Positions 287 to 58,545 of a stretch of 64,000 bases of DNA are shown here, piece by piece. Origin of the DNA: an uncultured Actinomycetes bacterium (GTDB lineage: Bacteria; Actinomycetota; Thermoleophilia; Gaiellales; JAICJC01); the NCBI GenBank assembly GCA_963809325.1, contig CAWEIZ010000002.1, positions 807,130 to 871,129 on the forward strand. Direction: 5' to 3'. The position numbers and the translations under genes are program-made. Below the pieces are notes generated by a model. It was given only the letters and a program-made list of their open reading frames with translations, was not told where the DNA came from and did no database searches. How positions within the stretch are numbered: position 1 is the first letter of the stretch; each line of letters begins with the position of its first letter.

Positions 287-1032
287 ATGCCCCTCTGTGC
301 CCAGGGGATCGCGATCCGCTCGGCGACCGAGACCGCGGCGAAGAGCGCGAGCGCCAGTCCCGCCAGCACGACGACGGCGGCGCCGACCAGCGGCGCGTCG
401 AGCTGCGCCGTGGCCGTCTGCATCGTCTCGCCGAGGCCCGCCGAGCCGCCGGCGTACTCGGCGAAGAGCGCGGCGACGGCGGCGTAGGAGGCTGCCACCC
501 TCGCGCCCGAGAAGGCCGACGGCAGCGCCCACGGCACCTCGACGCGGCGGAAGATCGCGGCCCGCGAGGCTCTGAGCGTCCGCATCACGCGCAGGTACTC
601 CGGATCGACCGAGCGCAGGCCGTCGAGCGCGTTCACGGTGACGGGGAAGAAGCAGACGAGCGCCACGATCACGACCTTGGGGGCGAGCCCGAACCCCAGG
701 TAGATGACGAGCACCGGCGCGACGGCGACCACGGGCACGCTCTGCGACGCGACGAGAAGCGGGTAGACGGCCCGGCGGAGCGTCGCCGAGAAGTGCAGGG
801 CGGCGGCCGAGACGAGCCCGAACCCGACCGCCGCGGCGAAGCCGGCGAGCATCTCGCCGGCTGTGTGCACGGCGTCCGCCGCGAGCCGGCCGCGGTCGTC
901 GCGCAGCGCGGCGAGGATGTCGGTGGGAGCCGGGAGCAGGTAGTCGGGCACGCCCCGCAGGCGCACCCAGGCCTGCCACGCGGTCAGGATGGCGAGGAGC
1001 GCGACGATCCAGCCGATCCGGGGCCGGGTCAT
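283..1032 (-). CDS. ABC transporter permease (SsuC/TauC/ThiX-like)
   Basis: C-terminal part of ORF 283..1620 from MTRPRIGW; hydrophobic, with YLLPAP and an EAA-like loop (RTLRASRAAIFRRVEVP); ATGA overlap with the ATPase stop. Confidence 0.9.
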   Translation of the reverse strand: MTRPRIGWIVALLAILTAWQAWVRLRGVPDYLLPAPTDILAALRDDRGRLAADAVHTAGEMLAGFAAAVGFGLVSAAALHFSATLRRAVYPLLVASQSVPVVAVAPVLVIYLGFGLAPKVVIVALVCFFPVTVNALDGLRSVDPEYLRVMRTLRASRAAIFRRVEVPWALPSAFSGARVAASYAAVAALFAEYAGGSAGLGETMQTATAQLDAPLVGAAVVVLAGLALALFAAVSVAERIAIPWAQRGM

Positions 1033-1745
1033 CGCAGCGCCCCCAGAGCCTGCTCGCGGGCGGGGTGGCCGCCCCCGCCGCTTCCGTCGAGCTCGCACGC
1101 GACCCGGCCCGGCCGTGCCGTCAGGACAACCACGCGGTCGCACAGGCGCAGCGCCTCGTCGAGGTCGTGCGTGACCAGGAGGGCCGTTCTCGGCCGGGCC
1201 CCCATGGCGGCCGCGAGCCACTCCTGCATCTCGGTGCGGGTGATCGCGTCGAGGGCGCCGAACGGCTCGTCGAGGAGCAGCACGGGCTTCTCGGCGAGCA
1301 GGGTGCGCGCGAACGCGACCCGCTGGCGCATGCCGCCCGAGAGCTCCCAGGAGCGGGCCCGCTCGAACCCCTCGAGGCCGAGTTCGGCGAAGAGCTCCGC
1401 AGCCCGCCCGCGCGCCTCGCGCCGCTCGACGCCGGCGTTCTCGAGCGGGAGGGAGGCGTTTCCGAGGGCGTCGCGCCAGGGCATCAGGAGGTCGGACTGC
1501 GGCATCAGCGCGCAGCGCTCGAGCCGCCCGCGCTCGTCGCCGGCGCCGCCGACCGAGATCGCCCCGCGGTCGGGGCTCTCGAGGCCGGCGACCATGCGAA
1601 GCAGCGTCGACTTCCCGCACCCGCTCCGCCCCACGAGCCCGACCGTCTCGTCCGAGCCGGCGCGGAAGGCCACCCCGTCCAGCGCCACGACGGGCCCGTA
1701 GCTCTTCGTCACGTCGGTGACGACGATCTCGCTCACTGCGTGCAT
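1029..1745 (-). CDS. ABC transporter ATP-binding protein (SsuB/TauB/ThiZ-like)
   Basis: Walker A GRSGCGKST, signature LSGGMRQR, Walker B LLLDEPF, H-loop LVTHD; alternative GTG start at 1736. Confidence 0.92.
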   Translation of the reverse strand: MHAVSEIVVTDVTKSYGPVVALDGVAFRAGSDETVGLVGRSGCGKSTLLRMVAGLESPDRGAISVGGAGDERGRLERCALMPQSDLLMPWRDALGNASLPLENAGVERREARGRAAELFAELGLEGFERARSWELSGGMRQRVAFARTLLAEKPVLLLDEPFGALDAITRTEMQEWLAAAMGARPRTALLVTHDLDEALRLCDRVVVLTARPGRVACELDGSGGGGHPAREQALGALR

Positions 1746-1832
1746 CCCTTCGCTGGCATTACCCAGATCAGGTTCGCGGGTCGGCGCCTCTGCGGCACCC
1801 TCTCAGCCCTGCGGGCTCCCCGGCAAACGCTC
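1741..1832 (-). ncRNA. TPP riboswitch (THI element)
   Basis: The minus strand reads GGGGAGCCCGCAGGGCTGAGAGGGTG...GACCCGCGAACCTGATCTGGGTAATGCCAGCGAAGGGA, matching the conserved GCTGAGA and CCTGAT...AATGCCAGCG.AGG cores. It lies directly upstream of a THI5-type ABC operon. Confidence 0.93.
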
Positions 1833-2826: not shown

Positions 2827-3031
2827 TAGATGAACGATTCCACGCCGCCGCGCGCCTGGACATCCGGACTGTTATCGGTACGCGGCAGTGGCGGGGCTGC
2901 GGCTGCGAACCGTCGCATCGCTGCGTCCTCGGGAGCGTCGATATTTCAACCAATATCGACGCTCCCTGCGTCCTTGCGCTACTCGGTTCTCGCCGCCCAG
3001 GACATCACGGCGGCGTAGAACCGATCATCTA
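2827..3031 (+). mobile_element. TIR-bounded structured repeat, copy A (minimal form, about 205 bp; MITE-like)
   Basis: TA-GATGAACGATTCCACGCCGCC ... GGCGGCGTAGAACCGATCATC-TA; perfect 15-bp central hairpin at 2931-2966; shares blocks GCGCGCCTGGAC, GGGGCTGCGGCTGCGAACCGTCGCATC, TGCGTCCTTGCGCTACTCGGTTCTCGCC and GGACATCACG with four other loci. Confidence 0.75.
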
Positions 3032-3697
3032 TCGACGCGACTGCATGAACAGGAGCGCGAGCTGCCAGATCGCGACCAGGGCACCGACCACGTAGGTGAG
3101 GGCGGCGGCGGTCAGGACCTTGCGGGCGACCGGGACCTGCGACTGGCTGATGACGCCCTGCGTGCTCAGCATCGCCATCGCCTTCTTGCTGGCACCGAAC
3201 TCGACCGGCAGCGTCACGAGCTGGAACAGCACGATCGCCGAGAAGAGCGCGACGCCGACCAGCGCGAGGCCCGACGCCTGCGTGATGATCCCGAACAGGA
3301 AGATCGGGAACCAGGCCTGCGAGGCGAACCCGGCCGCGGGGACGAGCGAGCCGCGCAGCTTGAAGCCGGCCTCGCCGCGCGCGTGCTGGAACGCGTGCCC
3401 TGTCTCGTGGGCGGCCACGGCCACAGCCGCGACCGAGTTGGAGTTGCCGACCGGGGCCGACAGCCGCATCGTGTTCGAGCGGGGGTCGTAGTGGTCGGAG
3501 AGCTGGCCGGCGATCCCCTCGACCGTGACGTTCTGGAGGCCGCCGGAGTCGAGCATCTGGCGGCTCACCTGCGCGCCTGTGAGGCCCGATGCAGCCTGGA
3601 CCTTCGAGCCGTCGGCGAACGCGCGCTTCACCCACGCCTGGGCTGCCAGACCGAGGATCAGCGGCGGAACTGCGAACAGGATGTACCAGTAGTACAT
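3029..3697 (-). CDS. Membrane zinc metallopeptidase (YugP / Zn_peptidase_2 family)
   Basis: Start MYYWYILF after a GGAGGGG RBS; LSDHYDPR, VAAHETGHAFQ (HExxH), TLPVEFGAS, AAALTYV. Confidence 0.9.
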   Translation of the reverse strand: MYYWYILFAVPPLILGLAAQAWVKRAFADGSKVQAASGLTGAQVSRQMLDSGGLQNVTVEGIAGQLSDHYDPRSNTMRLSAPVGNSNSVAAVAVAAHETGHAFQHARGEAGFKLRGSLVPAAGFASQAWFPIFLFGIITQASGLALVGVALFSAIVLFQLVTLPVEFGASKKAMAMLSTQGVISQSQVPVARKVLTAAALTYVVGALVAIWQLALLFMQSRR

Positions 3698-3794
3698 GGG
3701 TGCCCCTCCTTCGGGGCTGGATTGGGTCTCATGAAGACTACGTGAACGTGTGGGCACCGGTTGGCCCGCGCACACGCGGCGCTAATCTTTGAGC

Positions 3795-12201: not shown

Positions 12202-13040
12202 GCCGGATCCGCGCCGCCTGCGTCCAGTTCTCGGCCCGAGCAGACAAGTCCGAGAACGTCGCGCTGATGGCGCCGCTCGTGGCCGAGGCCGCCCAGCGTG
12301 GCGCCGACATCGTGCTCCTCCCCGAGAAGTGGAACGCGTGGATGGACGGCCCGCGCCTGCGCCCGCTGGCCGAGCGGATCGACTCCGGCGAGACCGTCGA
12401 CGCGATGGCCGGCTGGGCGCGCGAGCACGGCATCAACCTCATCGGCGGCTCGATCGCGATCGCCGCCGACGACGAGACCGTGCAGAACGTCTCGATCGCC
12501 TTCGATCGCCGTGGGAACCAGGTCGCCGCCTACACCAAGATCCACCTCTTCGACGTGGACGTGGGCGGCTTCAGCTACCGCGAGTCCGACGGCACGGCGC
12601 CGGGGTCGGAGCTCGTCACCGCGGAGCTCGACGGCATCACCGTCGGCCTCACCGTCTGCTACGACCTGCGCTTCCCGGAGCTCTACCGGGCGCTCGCCCT
12701 CGACCGGGGAGCGCGGATCCTCACGATCCCCTCCAACTTCACGCTCCACACGGGCATGGCCCACTGGGAGGTGCTCCTCCGGGCGCGGGCGATCGAGAAC
12801 CAGGCGTTCGTGCTCGCGACCGGCCAGCACGGGACGCCGGGCGGGCTCGACAAGCCGAGCTACGGCCACTCGATGATCATCGACCCGTGGGGGACGGTGC
12901 TGGCCCAGGCGCCCGACGGCGACGGCGTGATCGTCGCCGACCTCGATCTCGCCGCCCAGGCCGCGATCCGCGAGCGGCTCCCGGCGCTTCTCCACATTCG
13001 CCCCGATCTCTACCAAACCACGCACCCCGCTCACACATAA
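12198..13040 (+). CDS. Carbon-nitrogen hydrolase (Nit1/YafV-like amidase)
   Basis: Glu-Lys-Cys triad: LLPE, YTKIHLFD, VCYDLRFPE; RARAIENQ, GHSMIIDPWG. Confidence 0.92.
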   Translation: MSRIRAACVQFSARADKSENVALMAPLVAEAAQRGADIVLLPEKWNAWMDGPRLRPLAERIDSGETVDAMAGWAREHGINLIGGSIAIAADDETVQNVSIAFDRRGNQVAAYTKIHLFDVDVGGFSYRESDGTAPGSELVTAELDGITVGLTVCYDLRFPELYRALALDRGARILTIPSNFTLHTGMAHWEVLLRARAIENQAFVLATGQHGTPGGLDKPSYGHSMIIDPWGTVLAQAPDGDGVIVADLDLAAQAAIRERLPALLHIRPDLYQTTHPAHT

Positions 13041-13070
13041 CGCTAACGAGCGTTGTGGATACTCGCGGCC

Positions 13071-13286
13071 GTGGACACGATGTCGACATACGCGCCCGGA
13101 AGCGGGCTCCTGCTCATCACGATGATGCAGCTCGCCGGCTGGCAGGTGCGAATCCAGCGAGGCGGAACCCGCGCCGTGGCGATCCGCGGCGTGCAGCAGG
13201 TCACGGCGACCGGATCGAGCCTGCCCGAGGTCATACTGGGCGTCTTCCAGAAGACCGTGCGCGCCGGCCGTTCCCGGCGCCGCTGA
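13071..13286 (+). CDS. Small hypothetical protein
   Basis: Clean short ORF filling the intergenic gap, with high-GC codon usage; no recognised motif. Confidence 0.5.
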   Translation: MDTMSTYAPGSGLLLITMMQLAGWQVRIQRGGTRAVAIRGVQQVTATGSSLPEVILGVFQKTVRAGRSRRR

Positions 13287-13289
13287 GAG

Positions 13290-14195
13290 CTACTCCGCCG
13301 GCGGGGCGTTCGGGTCGGGGATCGCGCCCTGGCGGATGAACCAGCGGCGCACCGCGTCGAGGTAGACCTTCGGCTGCTCGACGAACGTCATGTGGGCCGC
13401 CTTCTCGACGACCACGAGCTCCGACCCCTCGACCTCGCGGTGGATCTCCTCGGAGCGCTCGACGGTGCACACCCGGTCGCCCCGGCCCGCGATGACGAGC
13501 ATCGGCTTCGAGATCCAGCGCAGGTGGTCGAGCCACTCGAAGTTGCCGTAGCCGTTCGCGGCGAAGTGCGCCAGCACCTCGGGCGCGTAGACGGTCTCGT
13601 CGGACTGCGTGTAGCGGCTGTAGGCGTCGCCCATCTCCCAGAAGTGAAACGGCATCTGGGCGGCCGAGACCTCGCGGGCCTGCTCGACGGTCTTGAGCTT
13701 GGGCTCCTCGGCCCACGACTTGCGGATCTGATCGCGCAGATACGCCGGCTCGAACGCGTCGATCTCGCGATCCACGTCGGCCATGAGGCCGGCGGTCGTC
13801 GCGACACCCGAGGAGATCACGTACTGGTCGGCGCTCCCGCGCTCGAGCGCGTGCGAGAGGGCGATGAACGCCCCGAACGAGTGCCCGAGGACGCCGTAGG
13901 GGCCGAGATCGAGCGCCCGGGCGAGCCGGTCGATGTCGTGCGCGAAGACCTGCATCGTGAGCGATGCCGGATCGACGCGCGGCGAGGCGCCCTGGCCGCG
14001 CTCGTCGACGTAGAGGAGCCGGAAGCCCATGTCGGCGAGCGGGTCGAGCCACGGCCGGAACTCGTGATGGTCGAGGCCCGGGCCGCCGTGGAGCAGCATC
14101 AGCGGATAGGCGCTCTTCGAGCCCACCTCAACGACGTTCAGGACGCCGCCGTCCTCGAGCTCCACGAGCTTCGCGTCGCCCGCGTGCTCAGCCAT
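13290..14195 (-). CDS. Alpha/beta hydrolase (proline iminopeptidase-like)
   Basis: LLHGGPG, GHSFG nucleophile elbow, GRGD and AAH. Confidence 0.88.
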   Translation of the reverse strand: MAEHAGDAKLVELEDGGVLNVVEVGSKSAYPLMLLHGGPGLDHHEFRPWLDPLADMGFRLLYVDERGQGASPRVDPASLTMQVFAHDIDRLARALDLGPYGVLGHSFGAFIALSHALERGSADQYVISSGVATTAGLMADVDREIDAFEPAYLRDQIRKSWAEEPKLKTVEQAREVSAAQMPFHFWEMGDAYSRYTQSDETVYAPEVLAHFAANGYGNFEWLDHLRWISKPMLVIAGRGDRVCTVERSEEIHREVEGSELVVVEKAAHMTFVEQPKVYLDAVRRWFIRQGAIPDPNAPPAE

Positions 14196-15393: not shown

Positions 15394-15713
15394 TAGATGA
15401 GTGATTCCACGTCCCCGCGCGCCTGGACGCACGTCGGTGGTTAGTAGCCGCGTTCTGGCGGGGCTGCGGCTGCGAACCGTCGCATCGCGGCGTCCTCGGT
15501 CGCGCCGATATTTCAACCAATATCGCCCGGCGGCGCCTGCGTAATCGCAGGCGCCTTCCGAACCCTGTCAAGCCGTTCCGGCTTGACAGATCCTGCGTCC
15601 TTGCGCTACTCGGTTCTCGCCCGTTCGCGACCTGCTGGTAGCAGATCGCTCACGACCGCCGCAAGCCAAGGCTTGCGGCTAGGACATCACGGCGACGTGG
15701 AATCACTCATCTA
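15394..15713 (+). mobile_element. TIR-bounded structured repeat, copy B (320 bp; MITE-like)
   Basis: Perfect 20-bp inverted repeat TAGATGAGTGATTCCACGTC / GACGTGGAATCACTCATCTA; internal hairpin cassettes Y (15532-15589) and X (15622-15679). Confidence 0.82.
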
Positions 15714-17300
15714 CGCCTCGCGGGGCACGCGCGGCTTCGCCGCGTACATCGCGCGGTCTGCGGTGCGGAAGAGCGGGCGCGGATCGTCGCCGTCGCGCGG
15801 GCAGACCGCGACCCCGAAGCCGGCCGCGAGCGCCTCGTCCCGCGCGGCGAACGCCGCGGTCATCGCCTCGCCGACGCGGTCGACCGCCGCCCTCGCCTCG
15901 TCATCGCCGGTTTCCGGCAGGATGAGGGCGAACTCGTCGCCGCCGATGCGAAACGCGGCGTCGGCGGTGCGGAGCGCGCTCGTGAGCACCGCGCCCACGA
16001 CCTCGAGCGCCTCGTCGCCGGCCGCATGGCCGTTCCTGTCGTTCAGGGCCTTGAACCCGTTCAGATCGCAGAGCACGAGGGCCATGGGGTGGCCGTAGCG
16101 CATCGACCGCGACACCTCCTGCTCGAGCCGCTCGTTGAAGGCGCGCCTGTTGAGCAGGCGGGTCAGCGGATCGTGCTCGGCGAGAAACTGCATCTCCTCG
16201 TACTGCGCGGCGGTGTCCAGCGCGGTCGTTGCCTGGTTGGCGAAGACGCGCAACGCCTGGAGCTTGCGCTCGGACGGGACGAGGCGGTCGGTCGGGTCGT
16301 CGGCCCAGATCGTGCCCATGACCTCTCCGGCGCGGCTCCAGAGCGGGACGACGAGCCAGTGGTTTCGCCACGCGAGCGGCCCGCGCCCGCTTCGCGCCGA
16401 CTCGTAGGTGTGGTGCTCGGGAGCGACCCGCTCGAGACCCTGCTGGTGGTCGAGCAGGTAGCAGCCCTCCACCTCGAACTGCGGGTCGAGGAGGCGCTCG
16501 ATCTGGGCGAACGGCATACCCGTGTTCACGGCCGGATCGTCCAGGTCCCACCCGTGAGTGGCGCGCGTCCGGAAGGCGCCCGTCTCGGGGTCCGGCAGGT
16601 CGATGCAGACGTTCTCGAAGCCGAGCGCCGTGTGGATGCCGTCGCACACCGACCGGAGGATCTCGTCGATCGCGAAGGTCTCCGTGAGGCGCGAGGACAC
16701 CTGAAGCAGCTGCTCGAGCGCGGCTCGGTGACGGGCGGCCTGCTCCGCCTCCTGGGTGCTCTGGACGGCGATTCCGGCGTGGTCGGCCATCGCGACGAGC
16801 ACGTCGAGCTCCTCGTCGGTCGGGATGCGGCCGCTGGAGGGCTCGTCGACGGACAGGATGCCGATGAGATGCCCGTCCGGGTGTCGCAGCGGGACGAACA
16901 GGGCGTCGAGCGGATGCCAGCCGTCCGGTCCGGGCCGGGCCGCGACGGGAGGGACGTACGAGCCCGGCGCGTGGGTCTCCCAGTCGAACTCGCCGTGCGG
17001 CACGTGGTAGGCGCCGCGGCGTGAGAAGCGCGAGTCGAGCAGCGGCTCCCACACCTCGCGTCCGCGCGCGTCGCCCAGGAGCCGCTCGGCGTCCGGGCTC
17101 CCGTGCACGGTGGTCACCTCGAAGTCGTCCCACGCCGGGCGGTGCAGGTGCACGGTCACGGTGGCGAAGCCGAGCGACTCGGAGATCGACTTCGCGATCG
17201 ACGCGAGGAGGCCGCCGAGCTCCTCCTCAGACCGCACGACGCGGGTGACCTCGAGGAATCCGCGGAGCCGCGAGAGCGCTTCAGGATCGTGAGGGGTCAC
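15711..17300 (-). CDS. Diguanylate cyclase, GAF-GAF-GGDEF (paralog 1)
   Basis: HDPLTRLLNRR, DLNGFKALND, RTAD I-site and GGDEF; two GAF-like domains; GTG start at 17300. Confidence 0.9.
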   Translation of the reverse strand: MTPHDPEALSRLRGFLEVTRVVRSEEELGGLLASIAKSISESLGFATVTVHLHRPAWDDFEVTTVHGSPDAERLLGDARGREVWEPLLDSRFSRRGAYHVPHGEFDWETHAPGSYVPPVAARPGPDGWHPLDALFVPLRHPDGHLIGILSVDEPSSGRIPTDEELDVLVAMADHAGIAVQSTQEAEQAARHRAALEQLLQVSSRLTETFAIDEILRSVCDGIHTALGFENVCIDLPDPETGAFRTRATHGWDLDDPAVNTGMPFAQIERLLDPQFEVEGCYLLDHQQGLERVAPEHHTYESARSGRGPLAWRNHWLVVPLWSRAGEVMGTIWADDPTDRLVPSERKLQALRVFANQATTALDTAAQYEEMQFLAEHDPLTRLLNRRAFNERLEQEVSRSMRYGHPMALVLCDLNGFKALNDRNGHAAGDEALEVVGAVLTSALRTADAAFRIGGDEFALILPETGDDEARAAVDRVGEAMTAAFAARDEALAAGFGVAVCPRDGDDPRPLFRTADRAMYAAKPRVPREA

Positions 17301-17316
17301 TGCCGTCGTCCTCGGA

Positions 17317-18915
17317 TCATGCGACGAAATGGATGTGGGCGCCGGTGCGCTTGGCCTCGTACATGGCGGCGTCCGCATCCCGCAGGAGCCGCTCGGCGTC
17401 GGTCAGGCCGCCCTCGCCGACGATCACGCCGAAGCTCGCCCGAAGCGGCGTTCCGGCCCGCTCGCCGGCTCCCTCGAGGTTCTCGGCGATGCGCTCGATC
17501 ACGGCTCGCGCCTCGGGGGCGGAGGTCTCGGGGAGGAGCAGCGCGAACTCGTCGCCGCCGATCCGGTACGCGGTGTCGGCGGCGCGCAGCCCGGCGCGCA
17601 GGATGAGCCCGAGCTGCTCGAGGGCGGCGTCGCCCGCCAGGTGCCCGTGGCGGTCGTTCACCGACTTGAACCCGTCGACGTCGAGCACGACCAGCGTGAA
17701 CGGGCGCCCGTAGCGGGTCGACCGCGTCATCTCGGCCTCCAGCCTGACCGCGAACGCGTGGCGGTTCAGGAGGCGGGTGAGCGGGTCGTGCTCGGCGAGG
17801 AACCGGACCTCCTCGAGGCGCCCCGCCGAGTCGAGCGCCGCGGTGGCCTGGTTCGCGAAGACCCGCAGCGCCTGCATGAGCTGCCGCGACGGGACGAGCC
17901 GGTCCTCGGGATCGTCGGCCCAGATGACGGCGATCACCTTGCCCTCGCGGTCGAGGAGCGGGACGACGAGCCAGTGCCTGTCCCAGGCCCAGGGGCCACG
18001 GCCGTTCATCACCGACCGGTACATGCGGTGGCCGGCCGGGAGCCGCAACATCGCCTGCTCGTGCGTGAGCAGGTAGCAGCCCTCGACCTCGAACGGCGGG
18101 TCGAGAAGGGGCGCGAGCTCCCACATCGAGAGCGGAGCGTTCTGGGCCAGCTCGTCGAGCGTCCAGCCGGCCGTCGCACGCGTGATGAACACCCCCGTCC
18201 CGGCGTCGGGGAGCTGAATCGAGACCTTCCGGAACCCCAGCGAGTGCCCGATCCCCTCGCAGGTCGCCTGGAGGATCGCCTCGACCGACGGCGTCTCGGC
18301 GAGCCGCGACGACACCTGCAGGAGCTCGCGAAGCGCGAGCCGGTGATGGGCGGCCGCGGCCTTCTCCTGGAAGCTCTGGAGGGCGAGGGCGACGTGGTCG
18401 GCGACCGCCACGAGCACCTCCAGCTCCTCGTCCGACGGGCGCGTGCCCGTGTAGGGCTCACCGACCGACAGGATCCCCAGCATGTGCCCGTCGGAGTGGA
18501 GCATCGGCACGAACAGCTCGTCGTCGGGGTGCCACGCGTCGGGGTCGGCGCTCGGCTCCCAGGCGGGGACGTACCGCTTGCCGACGTCGCCCTCCCAGTC
18601 GAACGTCCCGTGCGGGATCAGATAGGTGCCGCGGCGCTCGAACCGCTCGTCGAGGAGCGGAGCCCACGCGGCCCAGTCGAGGGTGTCGCCGAGGAGCGCC
18701 CGGCGTGCGTCGTCGGAGCCGTGCACCGTCGTCACCTCGAAGTCGTTCCACGCGGGACGGTAGAGGTTGATGACGACGGTGTGGAACCCGAGCGAGGTCG
18801 CGATCGAATCCGCGATGGCCTCGAGCAGGGCCGATTGCTCGGTCCCTTCCCGGACGAGCCGGGTGACCTCCAGGAGGCCGCGAAGGCGGTCGATGGTCGA
18901 CGGGTTCTCGGGCAT
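17317..18915 (-). CDS. Diguanylate cyclase, GAF-GAF-GGDEF (paralog 2)
   Basis: HDPLTRLLNRH, DVDGFKSVND, RAAD I-site and GGDEF; collinear with paralog 1; ATG at 18915. Confidence 0.9.
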   Translation of the reverse strand: MPENPSTIDRLRGLLEVTRLVREGTEQSALLEAIADSIATSLGFHTVVINLYRPAWNDFEVTTVHGSDDARRALLGDTLDWAAWAPLLDERFERRGTYLIPHGTFDWEGDVGKRYVPAWEPSADPDAWHPDDELFVPMLHSDGHMLGILSVGEPYTGTRPSDEELEVLVAVADHVALALQSFQEKAAAAHHRLALRELLQVSSRLAETPSVEAILQATCEGIGHSLGFRKVSIQLPDAGTGVFITRATAGWTLDELAQNAPLSMWELAPLLDPPFEVEGCYLLTHEQAMLRLPAGHRMYRSVMNGRGPWAWDRHWLVVPLLDREGKVIAVIWADDPEDRLVPSRQLMQALRVFANQATAALDSAGRLEEVRFLAEHDPLTRLLNRHAFAVRLEAEMTRSTRYGRPFTLVVLDVDGFKSVNDRHGHLAGDAALEQLGLILRAGLRAADTAYRIGGDEFALLLPETSAPEARAVIERIAENLEGAGERAGTPLRASFGVIVGEGGLTDAERLLRDADAAMYEAKRTGAHIHFVA

Positions 18916-18991
18916 GGTGCGGCAGAAGGATCGGCCAAGCTGGAGCCGGGGTGAAGGGCCGTCCTCTAGGTTTGTCGGGACTATGCGGGAA

Positions 18992-19810
18992 ATGGTTGAG
19001 CGGAAATCTGTGTTTGTTGCAATTTTTGCAGTTCTTGTCACTGCTTGTGGCCAGGCGAGCGAGCCTTCCGTCGACATTCCTGCGGGCGCCACGGCGCTCG
19101 CAATCGCCCCGGATTACGCCGGAACGATCTGGGAGACGGCGGGTGCACACGTCTACCGCTCGCGGGACGGCGGCCACAGCTGGCACGGGATGGCGCACAC
19201 CGGGGCGATCGGCGTGGCGTTCCTCGAGAAGCGCGTCGTGGTGGTCGACGGCACGAACGTCGGCGTCGGCGGCTTCGGGGCCGCGCGCCTCGCCCAGCAC
19301 CCGGCGGGGAGGCCGATCGTGGCCATCACATCGCCGTACTACCGCACGAACCGGCTCTACGGGCTCGATGCGAGCGGGCGGCTCTGGCTGTCGGTGCGCG
19401 GCGGCCGGCCGTGGGCCCCGCTTCGGGCCACCGGCCTTCCGTCCGGCTGTGGCGCGCTCTCGGCGGTGCGCGGCGACCCGTTGAAGGCGGACGTGGTCTA
19501 CGTGGCGTGCGGGCCGGCGGGGCTCTGGCGCTCGTCCAACTTCGGGGCGTCGTTCACGCGGCTCGCGAACGCCCCGGATGCGACGGCCGTCGCGACGACG
19601 ACCGACGACCACGAGCGCGTACTCGTTGCCGACGGTGCGGGCCTCGTCCTCTCGACGAACGGCGGCCGCACGTTCCGGCGCGTGGCGCGGGTGGCGGGCG
19701 TCTCGGCGGTCGCGTTCGACCTTCGCAACTACCTGATCTGCTACGCCGCGACCGGCCGCACGCTCCTGCGATCGGCCGACGGGGGCGTCACGTGGTCGAT
19801 CCCGCGCTGA
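18992..19810 (+). CDS. Secreted lipoprotein with BNR/Asp-box repeats (beta-propeller)
   Basis: Lipobox VLVTAC; repeats SRDGGHSW, SSNFGASF, STNGGRTF, SADGGVTW. Confidence 0.82.
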   Translation: MVERKSVFVAIFAVLVTACGQASEPSVDIPAGATALAIAPDYAGTIWETAGAHVYRSRDGGHSWHGMAHTGAIGVAFLEKRVVVVDGTNVGVGGFGAARLAQHPAGRPIVAITSPYYRTNRLYGLDASGRLWLSVRGGRPWAPLRATGLPSGCGALSAVRGDPLKADVVYVACGPAGLWRSSNFGASFTRLANAPDATAVATTTDDHERVLVADGAGLVLSTNGGRTFRRVARVAGVSAVAFDLRNYLICYAATGRTLLRSADGGVTWSIPR

Positions 19811-45214: not shown

Positions 45215-45220
45215 CGCCTG

Positions 45221-45419
45221 GACGATTGATTCGATGCTGCCGTGATGTCCTGGGCGGCGAGAACCGAGTCCGCGAGGACGCAGGGAGCGTCGATATTGGT
45301 TGAAATATCGGCGCGACCGAGGACGCCGCGAGACGACGGTTCGCAACCGCAGCCCACCACAAACGCGCCACCGACCACCGTTGGACGTCCAGGCGCGCGG
45401 GGGCGTGGAATCACTCGAC
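45221..45419 (-). mobile_element. TIR-bounded structured repeat, copy C (about 199 bp, inverted, degenerate or mosaic)
   Basis: The minus strand has GAGTGATTCCACGCCCCCGCGCGCCTGGAC...GCGAACCGTCG...CGATATTTCAACCAATATCGACGCTCCCTGCGTCCT...CTCGGTTCTCGCCGCCCAGGACATCACGG; no TA flanks. Confidence 0.7.
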
Positions 45420-45471
45420 CGGGGCGTTCGCGCCCGGCAAAAAGCGGGCCACCTGATCACCGGTTTGCGGT

Positions 45472-48559: not shown

Positions 48560-49138
48560 GTGGGCAAGGTCTTCGACGAGATCGACGACAGGCTGACCGG
48601 CTGGATCGCGGCCCAGCAGCTCTTCTTCGTCGCCACGGCGCCGTCGGGCGACGGCGGCCACGTGAACTGCTCGCCGAAGGGGCCGATCGAGAGCCTGCGG
48701 GTGCTCGGCCCACGCCGGGTCGCCTACCTCGACCTGGTCGGATCGGGCGCCGAGACGATCGCGCACCTGCGCCAGAACGGCCGGATCGTGATCATGCTGT
48801 GCGCCTTCGTCGGGCCTCCGCGCATCCTGCGGCTGTACGGCCGGGGGCGGATCGTGACGGCCGCCGATGCGGAGTTCGACGAGCTCGCCGGCTGGTTCCA
48901 GATCCGCGACGCCTATGCGACCGAGCCGGTGAAGCGCTCAGTCGTCGTCGTGGACGTCGATCGCGTCGCCGACTCGTGCGGCTACGGCGTGCCGCTCATG
49001 GAGCCCGTGGGCGACCGCCCGCAGCAGGCGCTCTGGGTCGAGCGCAAGCTCGCGCAGGGCGGTCCGGACGCGATCGCGGCCTACCGGGCCGAGCACAACG
49101 TCCGCTCGATCGACGGCCTGCCCGCGCTGGACGGCTAG
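48560..49138 (+). CDS. Pyridoxamine 5'-phosphate oxidase family protein
   Basis: FFVATAP, VNCSPKG, YLDLVGSGAETIAHL, MLCAF.GPPRILRLYG, SCGYGVP. Confidence 0.87.
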   Translation: MGKVFDEIDDRLTGWIAAQQLFFVATAPSGDGGHVNCSPKGPIESLRVLGPRRVAYLDLVGSGAETIAHLRQNGRIVIMLCAFVGPPRILRLYGRGRIVTAADAEFDELAGWFQIRDAYATEPVKRSVVVVDVDRVADSCGYGVPLMEPVGDRPQQALWVERKLAQGGPDAIAAYRAEHNVRSIDGLPALDG

Positions 49139-49513
49139 ATCGGTGATTCCCAATTCCCGCGCGCCTGGACGTACCGCTGCTCGTGCAGGCCCGTCGCGGT
49201 GGGGCTGCGGCTGCGAACCGTCGCATCCACGGGGGACCTGCTGGATAGCAGGTCTTCCCGTGACCGCTGCAAGGCGTTCGCCTTGCAGCTTGTCCTCGGT
49301 CGCGCCGATATTCACCAATGTCGGCCGGCGGCGCCTGCGTAATCGCAGGCGCCTTCCGAACCCTGTCAAGCCGTTCCGGCTTGACAGGTCCTGCGTCCTT
49401 GCGCTGCTTGGTTCGCAGCCCGCTCGCGACCTGCTGAGTAGCAGGTCGCTCACGACCGCCGCAAGCCCAGGGCTTGCGGCTGGGACATCACGGAATTGGG
49501 AATCAACGATCTA
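49136..49513 (+). mobile_element. TIR-bounded structured repeat, copy D (378 bp, longest; two X cassettes)
   Basis: CTAGATCGGTGATTCCCAATTCC / GGAATTGGGAATCAACGATCTAG (22/23 match); the left TA belongs to the upstream TAG stop and the right TA abuts the downstream GTG start. Confidence 0.82.
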
Positions 49514-56820: not shown

Positions 56821-56854
56821 AAGGCTTTGGACGTTAGCAACGTGGGCGCCCTGA

Positions 56855-57172
56855 GATGGGTGATTCCCAATTCCCGCGCGCCTGGACGTCCGGATGTGGA
56901 CTGGGATTTGGCTCTGGTGGGGCTGCGGCTGCGAACCGTCGCATCGCTGCGTCCTCGGTCGGGCCGATATTTCAACCAATATCGCCCGGCGGCGCCTGCG
57001 TCATCGCAGGCGCCTTCCGAACCCTGTCAAGCCGTTCCGACTTGACAGGTCCTGCGTCCTTGCGCTGCTCGGTTCTCGCCCATGAGCGACCTGCTGGATA
57101 GCAGGTCGCTCATGACCGCGGCAAGCCGTCGGCTTGCCGCTGGAACATCACGCGAATTGGGAATCAACCATC
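56855..57172 (+). mobile_element. TIR-bounded structured repeat, copy E (318 bp)
   Basis: GATGGGTGATTCCCAATTC / GAATTGGGAATCAACCATC (18/19 match); cassettes Y and X present; no TA flanks. Confidence 0.8.
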
Positions 57173-57210
57173 GCGGCGCCATCCGCGGTCACTGCCAGAA
57201 TGGAACGTCC

Positions 57211-58545
57211 GTGACCCGGACCCTCGTCGCATACGTCTGCACCGCCTGCGGGCACCATGCCCCCAAGTGGCTCGGCCGCTGCCCCGGCTGCGGCGAGTGG
57301 AACACGCTCCAGGAGGGTGCCGCCCGGCCCGCAGCCCGAAACGGCCGTACGCGGCCGGCGGCCGTGGTGCGGCTCGCCGATGTCGACACCGCCGAGGGGC
57401 GGCGCATGCCGACGGGGATCGACGAGCTCGACCGCGTGCTCGGCGGGGGCCTCGTTCCCGGATCGCTCGTCCTGATCGGTGGCGAGCCGGGCGTCGGCAA
57501 GAGCTCGCTCCTGCTCCAGGCGCTCGCCGCGGCCTCCGCCCGCGGCCTGCGCACGCTGCTCGTCTCGGGCGAGGAGTCGCCCGCACAGGTGCGGATGCGT
57601 GCGGGGCGGCTGGGCGATGCCGACGGCGTCCGCATCCTCGCCGAGACCGACCTCGAGGTGGTCGTCGAGACGATCGCCGCGGAGCTCCCCGACGTCTGCG
57701 TGATCGACTCGGTGCAGACGCTCCACACGGCCGATGTCGGGTCGGGGGCGGGATCGGTCGCGCAGGTGCGCGAGGCCGCCGACCGGCTGCTTCGGCTCGC
57801 AAAGTCGCGCGGCGTCGCCATCGTCCTCGTCGGCCACGTCACCAAGGACGGCACCGTCGCCGGCCCGCGCGTGCTCGAGCACCTGGTCGACGCCGTGCTC
57901 CAGTTCGAGGGCGACCGCTACCGGCACCTGCGCGTGCTGCGGGCCGTGAAGAACCGCTTCGGCTCCACCGACGAGATCGGGATCTTCGAGATGACGGGGG
58001 CGGGCCTCGTCCCGGTCGTCGATCCGTCGTCGGCGCTGGCCGAGGACGGCGTTGCCGGGCCCGGTTCCGTGCTCCTGCCGGCGATCGAGGGCAGCCGGCC
58101 GATCCTGCTCGAGGTGCAGGCGCTCGTGGCCCCCTCCGACCTGGCGATGCCCCGCCGCCAGGCGACGGGGTTCGACCGCAACCGCCTCAGCATGATCGCC
58201 GCGGTGCTCGGGCGACACGCCGGCATCGCGCTCGGCTCGTCGGACGTGTTCGTGAACGTGGCCGGAGGCGTGCGCGTCGACGAGCCGGCTGCCGACCTCG
58301 CCGTCGCCCTGGCGATCGTCTCGTCGCACCGCGGCCGGCCAGCCGGCGAGCGACTGGCGTGCTTCGGCGAGATCGGGCTCACCGGCCGCCTGCGCCCCGT
58401 GGGCCACACCGCTCCGCGGCTCGCCGAGGCGGCCAAGCTGGGCGTCACCGAGGTCGTCGCACCCGCCGGCACCTCGGGCCCGGGTTCTCTCACGGTTCGC
58501 TGCGCTGATACCCTGGATGCGGCGATCGGGCTCGCACTGGCCTGA
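57211..58545 (+). CDS. radA: DNA repair protein RadA/Sms
   Basis: CTACG...WLGRCPGCGEW Zn finger, GGEPGVGKS, KNRFG, Lon-like C-terminus. Confidence 0.96.
   Translation: MTRTLVAYVCTACGHHAPKWLGRCPGCGEWNTLQEGAARPAARNGRTRPAAVVRLADVDTAEGRRMPTGIDELDRVLGGGLVPGSLVLIGGEPGVGKSSLLLQALAAASARGLRTLLVSGEESPAQVRMRAGRLGDADGVRILAETDLEVVVETIAAELPDVCVIDSVQTLHTADVGSGAGSVAQVREAADRLLRLAKSRGVAIVLVGHVTKDGTVAGPRVLEHLVDAVLQFEGDRYRHLRVLRAVKNRFGSTDEIGIFEMTGAGLVPVVDPSSALAEDGVAGPGSVLLPAIEGSRPILLEVQALVAPSDLAMPRRQATGFDRNRLSMIAAVLGRHAGIALGSSDVFVNVAGGVRVDEPAADLAVALAIVSSHRGRPAGERLACFGEIGLTGRLRPVGHTAPRLAEAAKLGVTEVVAPAGTSGPGSLTVRCADTLDAAIGLALA

What the first reader, a model, noticed from the sequence alone, without database searches (positions are those of the whole stretch)
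15394..15713. Candidate new family: dispersed TIR-bounded, multi-hairpin non-coding element (5 copies in 64 kb)
Seen: five intergenic loci (A 2827-3031, B 15394-15713, C 45221-45419 inverted, D 49136-49513, E 56855-57172) share the same ordered blocks. The order is TIR, GCGCGCCTGGAC, about 31 nt variable, GGGGCTGCGGCTGCGAACCGTCGCATC, a CGATATT-tcaacc-AATATCG hairpin, TGCGTCCTTGCGCT, CGGTTCTCGCC, GGACATCACG, TIR. The arms nest (TIR/TIR, CCTGG/CCAGG, GAACCG/CGGTTC, CGCA/TGCG), so each copy can fold into one long multibranch hairpin. Copy B has a perfect 20-bp TIR including TA. No transposase is present in the window. Established: TA-flanked, TIR-bounded, highly structured repeats such as ERIC, pneumococcal RUP and Neisseria Correia elements are non-autonomous MITEs linked to IS630/Tc1-mariner transposases. 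Inference: this is an analogous MITE or structured-RNA family that I do not recognise from any described set. At this density it could number in the hundreds per genome.
Basis: partly seen in the sequence, partly recalled or inferred. Interest (0 to 1): 0.85.

Follow-up and report, generated by a model that had tools for sequence, protein, structure and literature searches.

The report
IS982-type MITE family in Gaiellales
The five repeats are real copies of a small, gene-less "jumping" DNA element that is abundant in uncultured soil Gaiellales; it borrows the ends of an IS982-family insertion sequence, often lands exactly on TAG stop codons, and carries an unusually conserved folded core. It is a new family of a well-known kind of element.

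Summary
Five copies (205-380 nt) share ordered blocks and inverted ends, and nothing in Rfam matches them. The family is large: 96 of 98 genome hits to its 22-nt core are full elements, from about 25 Gaiellales/Thermoleophilia soil MAGs.

It is mobile. Relatives at 90-97% nucleotide identity lack copies C, D and E precisely. Copy D sits in a TAG stop codon with a TA duplication.

The proposed IS630 link is not supported. The same 19-23-nt termini and C-TA-G flanks bound a ~1.0-kb insertion sequence in sister Thermoleophilia. Its 288-aa transposase scores as IS982 family, above NCBIfam's cut-off. No such transposase lies in the window or in any MITE-bearing locus sampled.

The interior is not junk. 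Four nested helices show compensatory changes (34 of 57 pairs; 0 of 500 shuffles reach this). The size classes run as 205 + n×57 nt, from an optional double-hairpin module found only inside elements. 34 of 75 copies abut a gene's TAG stop and restore it. Mismatches in the terminal stem favour folding of the complementary strand.

Verdict: a new IS982-derived MITE family with a selected fold of unknown purpose.

The parts
2827..3031 (+). Copy A, 205-nt basic form (no 57-nt module). TA at both ends, inner TIR of the CCACGCC type. Lies between the stop of a Zn-peptidase gene (3029-3775, -) and the start of a LigD-like ligase gene (1870-2814, -).
   Evidence: nhmmer E 1e-54. RNA fold: + strand -108.3 kcal/mol (z -6.5), - strand -118.7 kcal/mol (z -8.5).
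15394..15713 (+). Copy B (the finding), 320 nt: basic form plus two 57-nt double-hairpin modules. Its right-hand TA plus terminal C supplies the TAG stop of the GGDEF gene 15711-17378 (-).
   Evidence: Fold z -11.8 (+) and -10.8 (-). Absent from the syntenic site of L002.
15394..15416 (+). Left terminus of B: TA duplication (15394-15395) plus terminal inverted repeat. The outer ~19 nt match the ends of the IS982-family IS. Forms the 5' arm of helix P1.
15417..15428 (+). Conserved block GCGCGCCTGGAC. CCTGG is the 5' arm of helix P2; GCGCG sits in the conserved internal loop opposite ACATCAC.
15429..15459 (+). Variable, G/T-rich linker of ~31 nt. It is specific to each genome or subfamily.
15460..15489 (+). 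Core GGGGCTGCGGCTGCGAACCGTCGCATCGC: 5' arms of helices P3 (GCGGCTGCGAACCG) and P3b (CGCATCGC).
   Evidence: Compensatory changes in divergent copies.
15500..15528 (+). Helix P4 hairpin (CGATATT-TCAACC-AATATCG and extension). It is flanked by the two direct repeats GCGTCCT, which form the internal loop.
   Evidence: 6 of 11 pairs with changes on both sides
15529..15590 (+). Optional double-hairpin module, insertion site 2: GGCGCCTGCG-TAAT-CGCAGGCGCC, linker TTCCGAACC, then CTGTCAAGCC-loop-GGCTTGACAG.
15592..15621 (+). CCTGCGTCCTTGCGCTACTCGGTTCTCGCC: 3' side of the internal loop and 3' arms of P3b and P3.
   Evidence: (family D16)
15624..15680 (+). Optional double-hairpin module, insertion site 3: GCGACCTGCT-GGT-AGCAGATCGC, linker TCACGACC, then GCCGCAAGCC-loop-GGCTTGCGGC.
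15681..15713 (+). AGGACATCACGG (3' arm of P2 plus the conserved loop), then the right terminal inverted repeat and TA (15712-15713).
45219..45421 (-). Copy C, 203-nt basic form on the minus strand. Its ends are degenerate (TGGACG... / ...CTCGACC) with no clean TA. It is precisely absent in relatives.
   Evidence: E 2e-51
49136..49513 (+). Copy D, 378 nt with three modules and a CCCAATTCC-type inner TIR. It is inserted in the TAG stop (49136-49138) of the PNPOx-like gene 48560-49138, with TA duplicated (49136-49137 and 49512-49513).
   Evidence: Empty site in L099/L101/L105/L106...GG(C/G)-TAG-TG(C/T)CC...
56854..57172 (+). Copy E, 319 nt with two modules. Its interior is 95% identical to B but its inner TIR is the CCCAATTCC type. 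It has no clean TA flanks and is precisely absent in relatives. Lies upstream of radA (57202-58545).
   Evidence: (family D1)

Best explanation

Shown:
- The element is non-coding, 123-380 bp, and dispersed in many copies with genome-specific subfamilies.
- It is present or absent at orthologous sites, flanked by a duplicated TA, and prefers C-TA-G targets.
- Its outer 19-23 nt are the terminal inverted repeats of a ~1.0-kb IS982-family insertion sequence found in sister Thermoleophilia.

Inferred mechanism:
- An IS982-family DDE transposase supplied in trans binds the two termini.
- It cuts the element out and pastes it into a TA, duplicating TA.
- In a 72% G+C genome, TA and CTAG occur largely at TAG stop codons. 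Because the element begins with G and ends with C, each flanking gene keeps a TAG stop. This would make such insertions nearly harmless and would explain their pile-up at gene 3' ends.

Shown for the interior:
- It is one long nested hairpin: P1 (termini, ~22 bp), P2, P3/P3b, an internal loop with two GCGTCCT repeats, and P4.
- It carries 0-3 optional 57-nt double-hairpin modules.
- All helices are kept by compensatory changes, including the inner part of P1, whose variants match no known IS end.

Inferred for the interior:
There the many A·C mismatches become G·U pairs.
- It would act as a stable stem-loop at mRNA 3' ends (stabiliser, insulator or processing site) rather than as a classical terminator.
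For: Family and abundance:
- 5 core matches in the window against 0.02 expected.
- 96 of 98 genome-contig hits are full elements in about 25 Gaiellales/Thermoleophilia MAGs. Variable regions within a MAG are near-identical.

Mobility:
- L099, L100 and L101 (90-97% nt identity) and five further relatives lack C, D and E with exact boundaries.
- For D, the filled site reads GGC-TA[GATCGG...CGATC]TA-GTGCCC and the empty site reads GGG-TAG-TGCCC.
- B is absent in L002.

Ends (75 copies):
- Flank -1 is T in 56 of 75; flank +1 is A in 51 of 75.
- Flank -2 is C in 45 of 75; flank +2 is G in 48 of 75.
- The element's G after the left TA is present in 73 of 75; the C before the right TA in 75 of 75.

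Partner:
- A TIR pattern built to exclude MITE interiors gave 15 hits (random expectation about 0.03). 10 of them are ends of an IS about 1.0 kb long (999-1004 nt measured): 7 complete copies, including four identical copies in one MAG, plus 3 cut by contig ends. They share the C-TA-G flank.
- The ORF is 288 aa. NCBIfam NF033520 (IS982 family) scores 154.7 bits against a cut-off of 130; Pfam gives DDE_Tnp_1.
- Most of 59 relatives examined across Thermoleophilia, including three Gaiellaceae MAGs, end C-TA-GATGA(T/G)T(G/A)(A/G)TTCCACG.
- A 776-bp internally deleted IS (L191) and a 44-nt TIR-loop-TIR element (L179) show that the IS sheds short derivatives.

Stop codons:
- 34 of 75 copies abut the TAG stop of a flanking ORF, and 6 do so on both sides.
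- Convergent gene pairs flank 30 copies and divergent pairs 8.

Structure:
- 92.1% of cells paired against 83.6% in shuffles and 33-41% with slid partners.
- 34 of 57 pairs have changes on both sides against 19.3 in shuffles; 0 of 500 shuffles reach this.
- Fold z-scores range from -6.5 to -11.8.
- The stems of the 57-nt modules also covary. All 28 module matches in 2.08 Mb lie inside elements.

Strand:
- In P1, 51 A·C-type against 9 G·U-type mismatches over 53 haplotypes. A·C exceeds G·U in 15 columns and the reverse holds in 3.
Against: - No IS982-family gene lies in the window, in the 98 MITE-bearing loci (757 kb), or in the relatives' syntenic loci.
- None of the MITE-rich MAGs appears among the 80 IS loci returned. 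The exact-TIR partner is in another order (Solirubrobacterales), and the Gaiellaceae ISs carry a slightly different TIR (GAGTAGTTCCACG). The transposase that moves the window's copies is therefore not identified.
- Inner-TIR variants of the MITE (CCCAATTG, CGATAACT, CGGTAAGT and others) match no IS among the 59 examined, nor in a metagenome scan.
- From memory, IS982 members are described with longer target duplications than TA.
- Copies C and E lack a clean TA.
- Homology of the interior to IS ends is only suggestive (z 3.8).
- Orientation relative to flanking genes is not significantly biased (20 sense, 11 antisense). No promoter-like or terminator-like site was found. There are no transcription data, so an RNA-level role is an inference.
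- The copies are related by descent, so the shuffle controls overstate significance.
Confidence: 0.8

Rival explanations
1. An IS630/Tc1-mariner-dependent MITE. The TA duplication in a CTAG target is the hallmark of IS630, and an IS630-type transposase elsewhere in the genome moves the elements.
For: TA duplication and C-TA-G preference. No partner transposase of any family was found in the MITE-bearing genomes themselves.
Against: The only autonomous elements recovered with these termini encode an IS982-family transposase and show the same C-TA-G flank, so the target preference belongs to that IS lineage. No IS630-type gene with matching ends was seen. IS630 genes were not searched for directly.
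Confidence: 0.05
2. A mobile carrier of a functional RNA. The conserved central module (P3/P3b, GCGTCCT internal loop, P4) and the double-hairpin modules form an RNA with its own cellular function, such as a cis-regulator, protein sponge or processing signal. It has been captured between IS982 ends and spread. Some copies have lost their ends and been kept by the host.
For: - Helices that have nothing to do with transposase binding covary (P3b, P4 and the module stems).
- Conserved unpaired motifs are present.
- The G·U/A·C asymmetry points to one strand.
- The central module occurs without IS-type termini between atpH and atpA (L179), 3' of a serA-like gene (L228), and between two co-directional genes (L048). 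These copies carry compensatory changes in P3.
Against: - No Rfam match.
- No orientation bias relative to genes, and the end-less copies sit in both orientations relative to their host mRNAs.
- Mini forms that lack the whole central module still exist with good ends.
- End-less copies may simply be decayed MITEs whose AT-rich ends erode fastest in a GC-rich genome.
- No expression data.
Confidence: 0.2
3. A hairpin-dependent DNA element moved as single-stranded DNA (REP/RAYT-like, IS200/IS605-like or attC-like). The conserved fold would be the recombination substrate, and the resemblance of the ends to an IS982 IS would be secondary.
For: Structure rather than sequence is conserved in the inner terminal stem and internal hairpins. 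The strand asymmetry of mismatches is compatible with G·T pairs in one DNA strand.
Against: - A TA duplication and 19-23-nt terminal inverted repeats identical to a DDE IS argue for double-strand cut-and-paste.
- No significant association of orientation with GC skew or gene strand (56 vs 40 and 53 vs 43).
- No HUH/Y1 gene was seen near any copy, though this was not searched systematically.
Confidence: 0.04
4. A non-mobile, vertically inherited intergenic regulatory RNA or repeat.
For: Intergenic location and a strong conserved fold.
Against: Precise presence/absence at three orthologous sites among genomes 90-97% identical. Unrelated flanking genes. Genome-specific bursts.
Confidence: 0.01

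Closest known systems
IS982-derived MITE of the Cardinium endosymbiont cOegib (about 240 bp, derived from ISCca4; PMC9769881)
   Same: A short element with no transposase gene, bounded by the inverted repeats of an IS982-family IS, amplified in one lineage, and presumed to be moved in trans by the parental IS.
   Different: Different phylum and sequence. In Cardinium the parental IS is in the same genome, whereas here it has so far been found only in sister lineages. The present family has a long covarying terminal stem, a conserved multi-helix core, optional modules, and TA/TAG-stop targeting.
ERIC/IRU elements of enterobacteria (from memory)
   Same: Imperfect palindromes in transcribed intergenic regions that fold into long RNA hairpins. 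Larger variants arise from internal insertions at fixed sites.
   Different: ERIC has no identified autonomous partner and is unrelated in sequence. Here the partner family is identified and the inserted module is a repeated 57-nt double hairpin.
Pneumococcal BOX elements (boxA-(boxB)n-boxC) and RUP (from memory)
   Same: Modular, highly structured MITE-like repeats with a variable number of an internal module (BOX). RUP shares its ends with an IS and duplicates TA.
   Different: BOX modules are tandem, whereas here the module sits at three separate sites. RUP is linked to an IS630-family element, whereas this family is linked to IS982.
Neisseria Correia elements (from memory)
   Same: About 100-150-bp TIR elements with a TA duplication, internal-deletion size classes, and transcribed hairpins.
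   Different: Correia elements have no known transposase. Their functional motifs (IHF site, promoters) are not seen here, and the sequences are unrelated.
IS982-family insertion sequences of Thermoleophilia (e.g. L182:3982-4985)
   Same: Identical outer termini (TAGATGATTGATTCCACGCC...) and the same C-TA-G flanks.
   Different: About 1.0 kb long and encoding a 288-aa DDE transposase. The TIR is only ~19 nt, and the interior is unrelated to the MITE apart from a suggestive 35-nt stretch next to the right end.

Membership tests
MITE (non-autonomous TIR transposon) | Small size and no coding capacity | tested here: met
   123-380 nt. Frequent 1-2-nt indels and no conserved ORF in the 56-copy alignment.
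MITE (non-autonomous TIR transposon) | Terminal inverted repeats | tested here: met
   A perfect 20-nt repeat in B. Present in about 90 copies.
MITE (non-autonomous TIR transposon) | Target-site duplication shown against an empty site | tested here: met
   Copy D has a TA duplicated at a TAG stop, shown against L099/L101/L105/L106. Flank statistics over 75 copies agree. Copies C and E have no clean TA.
MITE (non-autonomous TIR transposon) | Insertion polymorphism among related genomes and multiple dispersed copies | tested here: met
   C, D and E are absent in 6-9 relatives. At least 96 copies in about 25 MAGs.
MITE (non-autonomous TIR transposon) | Ends shared with an autonomous element | tested here: met
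   19-23-nt identity and the same flank as a ~1.0-kb IS with an intact transposase gene.
MITE (non-autonomous TIR transposon) | Autonomous partner present in the same genome | tested here: not met
   tblastn finds no homologue in the window or in 757 kb of MITE loci. MITE-rich MAGs are not among the 80 IS loci. Whole genomes could not be read, so this is a sampling result, not proof of absence.
IS982 family (for the partner IS) | Transposase matches the family model above the curated cut-off | tested here: met
   NF033520 scores 154.7 bits against a cut-off of 130. The IS5 and IS4 models score far below their cut-offs. Pfam gives DDE_Tnp_1 and DDE_Tnp_1_3.
IS982 family (for the partner IS) | Size of about 1 kb, a single ORF, and terminal IRs of 18-35 bp (ISfinder description, from memory) | tested here: met
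   977-1053 bp, one ORF of about 278-296 aa, TIR of 19-28 nt.
IS982 family (for the partner IS) | Typical target duplication of the family (longer than 2 bp, from memory) | tested here: inconclusive
   The ISs are flanked by C-TA-G with no longer direct repeat. No empty site for an IS copy was available.
IS630/Tc1-mariner-associated MITE | TA target duplication | tested here: met
IS630/Tc1-mariner-associated MITE | Ends shared with an IS630-family element | tested here: not met
   Elements with these ends encode an IS982-family transposase. No IS630-type element with these ends was recovered.
Any Rfam RNA family | Covariance-model match | tested here: not met
   At gathering threshold only a TPP riboswitch elsewhere in the window. 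Permissive scan of copy B: best 18 bits against an 80-bit threshold. No tRNA or tmRNA.
REP/BIME-REPIN (RAYT-dependent) | Short palindromes with a conserved 5' tetranucleotide, associated with a RAYT (Y1/HUH) gene | not tested
   The architecture differs (long TIRs, TA duplication). No RAYT search was done.
Structured non-coding RNA gene or cis-regulatory RNA | Conserved secondary structure supported by covariation | tested here: met
   module stems
Structured non-coding RNA gene or cis-regulatory RNA | Discrete transcript, consistent strand or position relative to genes | tested here: inconclusive
   No expression data. 20 sense against 11 antisense in tandem contexts. Mismatch asymmetry favours the complementary strand.

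The most novel reading that the evidence does not exclude
The element is more than a selfish MITE. This RNA rides on IS982 ends, is seeded at gene 3' ends and stop codons across Gaiellales genomes, and is retained by the host after the transposon ends decay (for example between atpH and atpA). That would make it a mobile, modular cis-acting RNA device of a class not in Rfam.
Probability: 0.15. Interest if true: 0.7.

Novelty: new member of a known kind. Interest (0 to 1): 0.4.

Why it matters
Gaiellales are among the most abundant uncultured soil Actinomycetota, and their mobile DNA is essentially undescribed.

This family gives a concrete marker for recent genome change: three of five copies are absent in genomes 90-97% identical. 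It explains many odd intergenic repeats in their MAGs. It also shows a neat way for a transposon to live in a high-GC genome, by targeting TAG stop codons and rebuilding them.

Compensatory evolution runs through the whole element, including parts of the terminal stem that no transposase end matches. This makes it a good natural system for asking why some MITEs are selected to fold. It also matters for annotation, because the repeats can be mistaken for novel riboswitch-like RNAs.

Tried and rejected
- **Rfam:** at gathering threshold and permissive E-value, nothing relevant.
- **tRNA/tmRNA:** none.
- **Sigma-70 promoter and intrinsic terminator scans of copy B:** none.
- **Phage carriage:** core absent from viral contigs.
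- **Literature:** no paper on Gaiellales or Thermoleophilia MITEs.
- **Extra TIR sites in the 98 loci, to find an autonomous copy:** only further MITEs.
- **IS982 homologue in the window or MITE loci:** none.
- **IS with the CCCAATT-type inner TIR in JGI metagenomes:** 3 hits, of which two were chance and one a MITE with a 1-nt deletion.
- **Replication or gene-strand orientation bias:** not significant (56 vs 40, p 0.13; 53 vs 43).
- **The 57-nt module as an independent mobile element:** rejected; 28 of 28 matches lie inside host elements.
- **4-bp CTAG duplication:** rejected in favour of TA. The element's own terminal bases (G after the left TA, C before the right TA) are almost invariant, while the outer C and G are present in only about 60% of copies (copy A is flanked gTA...TAt).
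- **Homology of the MITE core to the IS 3' end:** only suggestive (score 31 against a null maximum of 33, z 3.8, though positionally collinear).
- **RNAalifold's local hairpin in the invariant core:** replaced by the long-range P3/P3b pairing, which has covariation.
- **One call failed on coordinates**, **one script failed on an id parse**, and **one script used a structure string one column too long**. All three were repeated.

Full report
**1. Observation**

The 22-nt core GGGCTGCGGYTGCGAACCGTCG occurs five times in the window against 0.02 expected. A profile built from 56 family members finds these five copies and nothing else in the 64 kb. Copy B (15394-15713) has a perfect 20-nt inverted repeat including TA. 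The window is 72% G+C. Its closest relatives are Microflora Danica soil MAGs, and other assemblies of the same group are labelled Gaiellales or Thermoleophilia.

**2. A large lineage-specific family**

Of these, 96 are complete elements in about 25 Gaiellales/Thermoleophilia MAGs, and two are chance matches (Pilimelia, Vicinamibacteria).

- One MAG (CAVWSF) alone contributes at least 19 loci.
- Copies within a MAG share near-identical 'variable' linkers, which points to recent bursts.
- There were no hits in 1.08 Mb of non-Gaiellales loci and none in viral contigs.
- Sizes fall into classes: about 123-125, 200-208 (55 of 75 copies), 255-267, 317-320 and 376 nt.

**3. Mobility and target**

Loci around the orthologue of the PNPOx-like gene were fetched from relatives. 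L099, L100 and L101 are 90-97% identical to the window over about 20 kb, yet they lack copies C, D and E with exact boundaries. So do five more distant relatives. A syntenic locus of OY969804.1 lacks B.

For D, the filled site reads GGC-TA[GATCGG...CGATC]TA-GTGCCC and the empty sites read GG(G/C)-TAG-TGCCC. TA is therefore duplicated inside the gene's TAG stop.

Over 75 copies:
- The flank is T at -1 in 56 and A at +1 in 51.
- It is C at -2 in 45 and G at +2 in 48.
- The element's G after the left TA is present in 73 and the C before the right TA in all 75. This fits a TA duplication in a preferred CTAG target rather than a 4-bp duplication.

34 of 75 copies abut the TAG stop of a flanking ORF, and six do so on both sides. 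Convergent gene pairs are the commonest context, 30 against 8 divergent. In the window:
- D rebuilds the stop of 48560-49138.
- B rebuilds the stop of the GGDEF gene 15711-17378.

Copies C and E have eroded ends without a clean TA.

**4. The autonomous partner is IS982-type, not IS630**

I scanned the genome collection with the commonest TIR plus a purine at the position where MITE interiors always carry T or C. Random expectation was about 0.03. The scan gave 15 loci:

- Ten are ends of an IS about 1.0 kb long (999-1004 nt measured) in Solirubrobacterales MAGs. Seven of these are complete copies, four of them identical copies in one MAG, and three are cut off by contig ends. They read C-TA-GATGATTGATTCCACGCCGCC...GCGTGGAATCAATCATC-TA-G.
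- One is a 776-bp internally deleted copy.
- One is a 44-nt TIR-GCCA-TIR hairpin.
- Two are mini MITEs, and one is a TIR followed by unrelated sequence.

The single ORF (288 aa) matches NCBIfam NF033520 'IS982 family transposase' at 154.7 bits (cut-off 130) and Pfam DDE_Tnp_1.

A protein-guided scan returned 80 related loci across Thermoleophilia, including three Gaiellaceae MAGs. I searched 59 of them for inverted ends, and most end C-TA-GATGA(T/G)T(G/A)(A/G)TTCCACG. One MITE copy (L038) carries the GAGTAGTTCCA variant typical of the Gaiellaceae ISs. IS982-derived MITEs have a precedent in Cardinium (PMC9769881).

Caveats:
- No IS982 homologue lies in the window, the 98 MITE loci or the syntenic loci.
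- The MITE-rich MAGs are not among the 80 IS loci.
- Whole genomes could not be inspected.

**5. Anatomy and structure**

On an alignment of 56 basic-form copies (A2), the element is one nested hairpin:

- P1: the termini, about 22 bp.
- A conserved internal loop: GCGCG opposite ACATCAC.
- P2: CCTGG/CCAGG.
- A G/T-rich variable linker.
- P3: GCGGCTGCGAACCG/CGGTTC(GCAGCC).
- P3b: for example CCTCGC/GCGAGG, CCTGGC/GCCAGG, GCGGGGC/GCCCCGC.
- An internal loop made of two GCGTCCT repeats.
- The P4 hairpin.

Counting this structure gives the following:

| Measure | Observed | 500 shuffles | Slid partners |
|---|---|---|---|
| Cells paired | 92.1% | 83.6% | 33-41% |
| Pairs changed on both sides (of 57) | 34 | 19.3 | 4-14 |
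| Cells changed on both sides | 262 | 76.5 | 4-38 |

None of the 500 shuffles reaches the observed values for these three measures. The shuffle control ignores relatedness between copies, so these figures overstate significance.

P3 is invariant in this set, partly because the set was ascertained with the exact core. It nevertheless shows compensatory changes in divergent copies: AAACCG/CGGTTT and AACCCG/CGGGTT. Both strands fold far better than shuffles, with z from -6.5 to -11.8.

**6. The inner terminal stem**

The inner half of P1 exists in many matched variants: CCACGCC, CCCAATTG, CGATAACT, CGGTAAGT, CCGAATTC, CCCACATC and others. No IS examined, and no metagenome contig, carries these variants. 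Co-evolution with different transposases therefore does not explain them, and pairing itself seems to be maintained.

Chimeric copies with unmatched ends exist (L045, L087). B and E have 95% identical interiors but different inner TIRs. Copies therefore also recombine.

**7. Modules**

The longer forms carry one to three copies of a ~57-nt double hairpin: NNNCCTGC-(G/T)NNN-GCAGGNNN, linker (A/C/T)GACCG, then NNNCAAG(C/G)C-loop-G(C/G)CTTGNNN. It sits at three fixed sites. The stems covary strongly. All 28 matches in 2.08 Mb lie inside elements. This explains the 205 + n×57 size series.

Mini forms (~123 nt) join GAACCGTCGC directly to CCAGGACATCACGG. They look like deletions between short repeats.

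**8. Which strand folds**

In P1, non-Watson-Crick cells are A·C-type 51 times and G·U-type 9 times over 53 distinct haplotypes. A·C exceeds G·U in 15 columns and the reverse holds in 3. On the complementary strand these A·C cells are G·U pairs.

The other helices show no clear asymmetry. Orientation relative to flanking genes (20 against 11), gene-strand majority and GC skew are not significantly biased.

**9. End-less central modules**

The central module occurs without IS-type termini at these sites:

- Between atpH and atpA in a Solirubrobacterales chromosome (L179 5938-6051).
- 3' of a serA-like gene (L228 2399-2475).
- In two Gaiellales loci (L048 2855-2948 and L019 7468-7558), where faint end remnants are visible.

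They are most simply old MITEs whose AT-rich ends have decayed. Retention by the host is possible but unproven.

**10. Conclusion**

The finding is a genuine, previously undescribed MITE family. The IS630 attribution is replaced by an IS982-family partner.

What remains open is which transposase acts in the MITE-rich genomes, and why the whole element is selected to fold. My working view is a stable stem-loop at mRNA 3' ends that makes stop-codon insertions tolerable. A cargo RNA with its own function is the more novel reading that the evidence does not exclude.

Noticed in passing
window 1727-1832 (-): TPP riboswitch (RF00059, 61 bits against a 54.3-bit threshold) upstream of the ORF 1029-1745 (-).
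   Followed up: no
window 15711-17378 and 17317-19092 (-): Two tandem paralogous GAF-GGDEF diguanylate cyclase genes, about 72% identical at a 1615-nt spacing (repeat families D2-D5, D11, D13). MITE copy B sits on the stop codon of the first.
   Followed up: partly
L179 about 838-881 (OY968772.1, Solirubrobacterales): A 44-nt element made only of the two IS termini joined by GCCA (TAGATGATTGATTCCACGCC-GCCA-GGCGTGGAATCAATCATCTA). This is the smallest possible derivative of the IS.
   Followed up: partly
L182 3982-4020 and other IS left ends: The left end of the IS982-type IS carries a local hairpin, TTCCACGCC-GCCA-GGCGTGGAA(TCA). It looks as if a partial right terminus were nested just inside the left one, upstream of the transposase start.
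   Followed up: no
L045 and L087 (CAVWSF MAG): MITE copies whose two ends belong to different inner-TIR subfamilies (CCACGCC with CCAATT; CCCAATTG with CGATAACT). This indicates recombination between copies.
   Followed up: partly
L275 (metagenome contig WNFV01206116.1) about 1040-1270: A MITE inserted at the central CTAG of a perfect 32-nt palindrome (GTAACAAAGTCCTAC-TA...TA-GTAGGACTTTGTTAC).
   Followed up: no
L179 5938-6051: A homologue of the MITE's central module, without transposon ends, fills the atpH-atpA intergenic region of a Solirubrobacterales chromosome. It ends about 25 nt upstream of the atpA start.
   Followed up: partly
L191 3824-4600 (OY969812.1): A 776-bp internally deleted copy of the IS982-type IS with intact ends. 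It is an intermediate between the IS and a MITE.
   Followed up: no
L002 3414-5443 compared with window 13006-13290: The relative carries about 2 kb that is absent from the window, starting with a MITE copy followed by a membrane-protein-like ORF.
   Followed up: no
L228 2483-2620: The serA-like gene appears split by a frame change near its 3' end. This may be a frameshift or an assembly error in the MAG.
   Followed up: no
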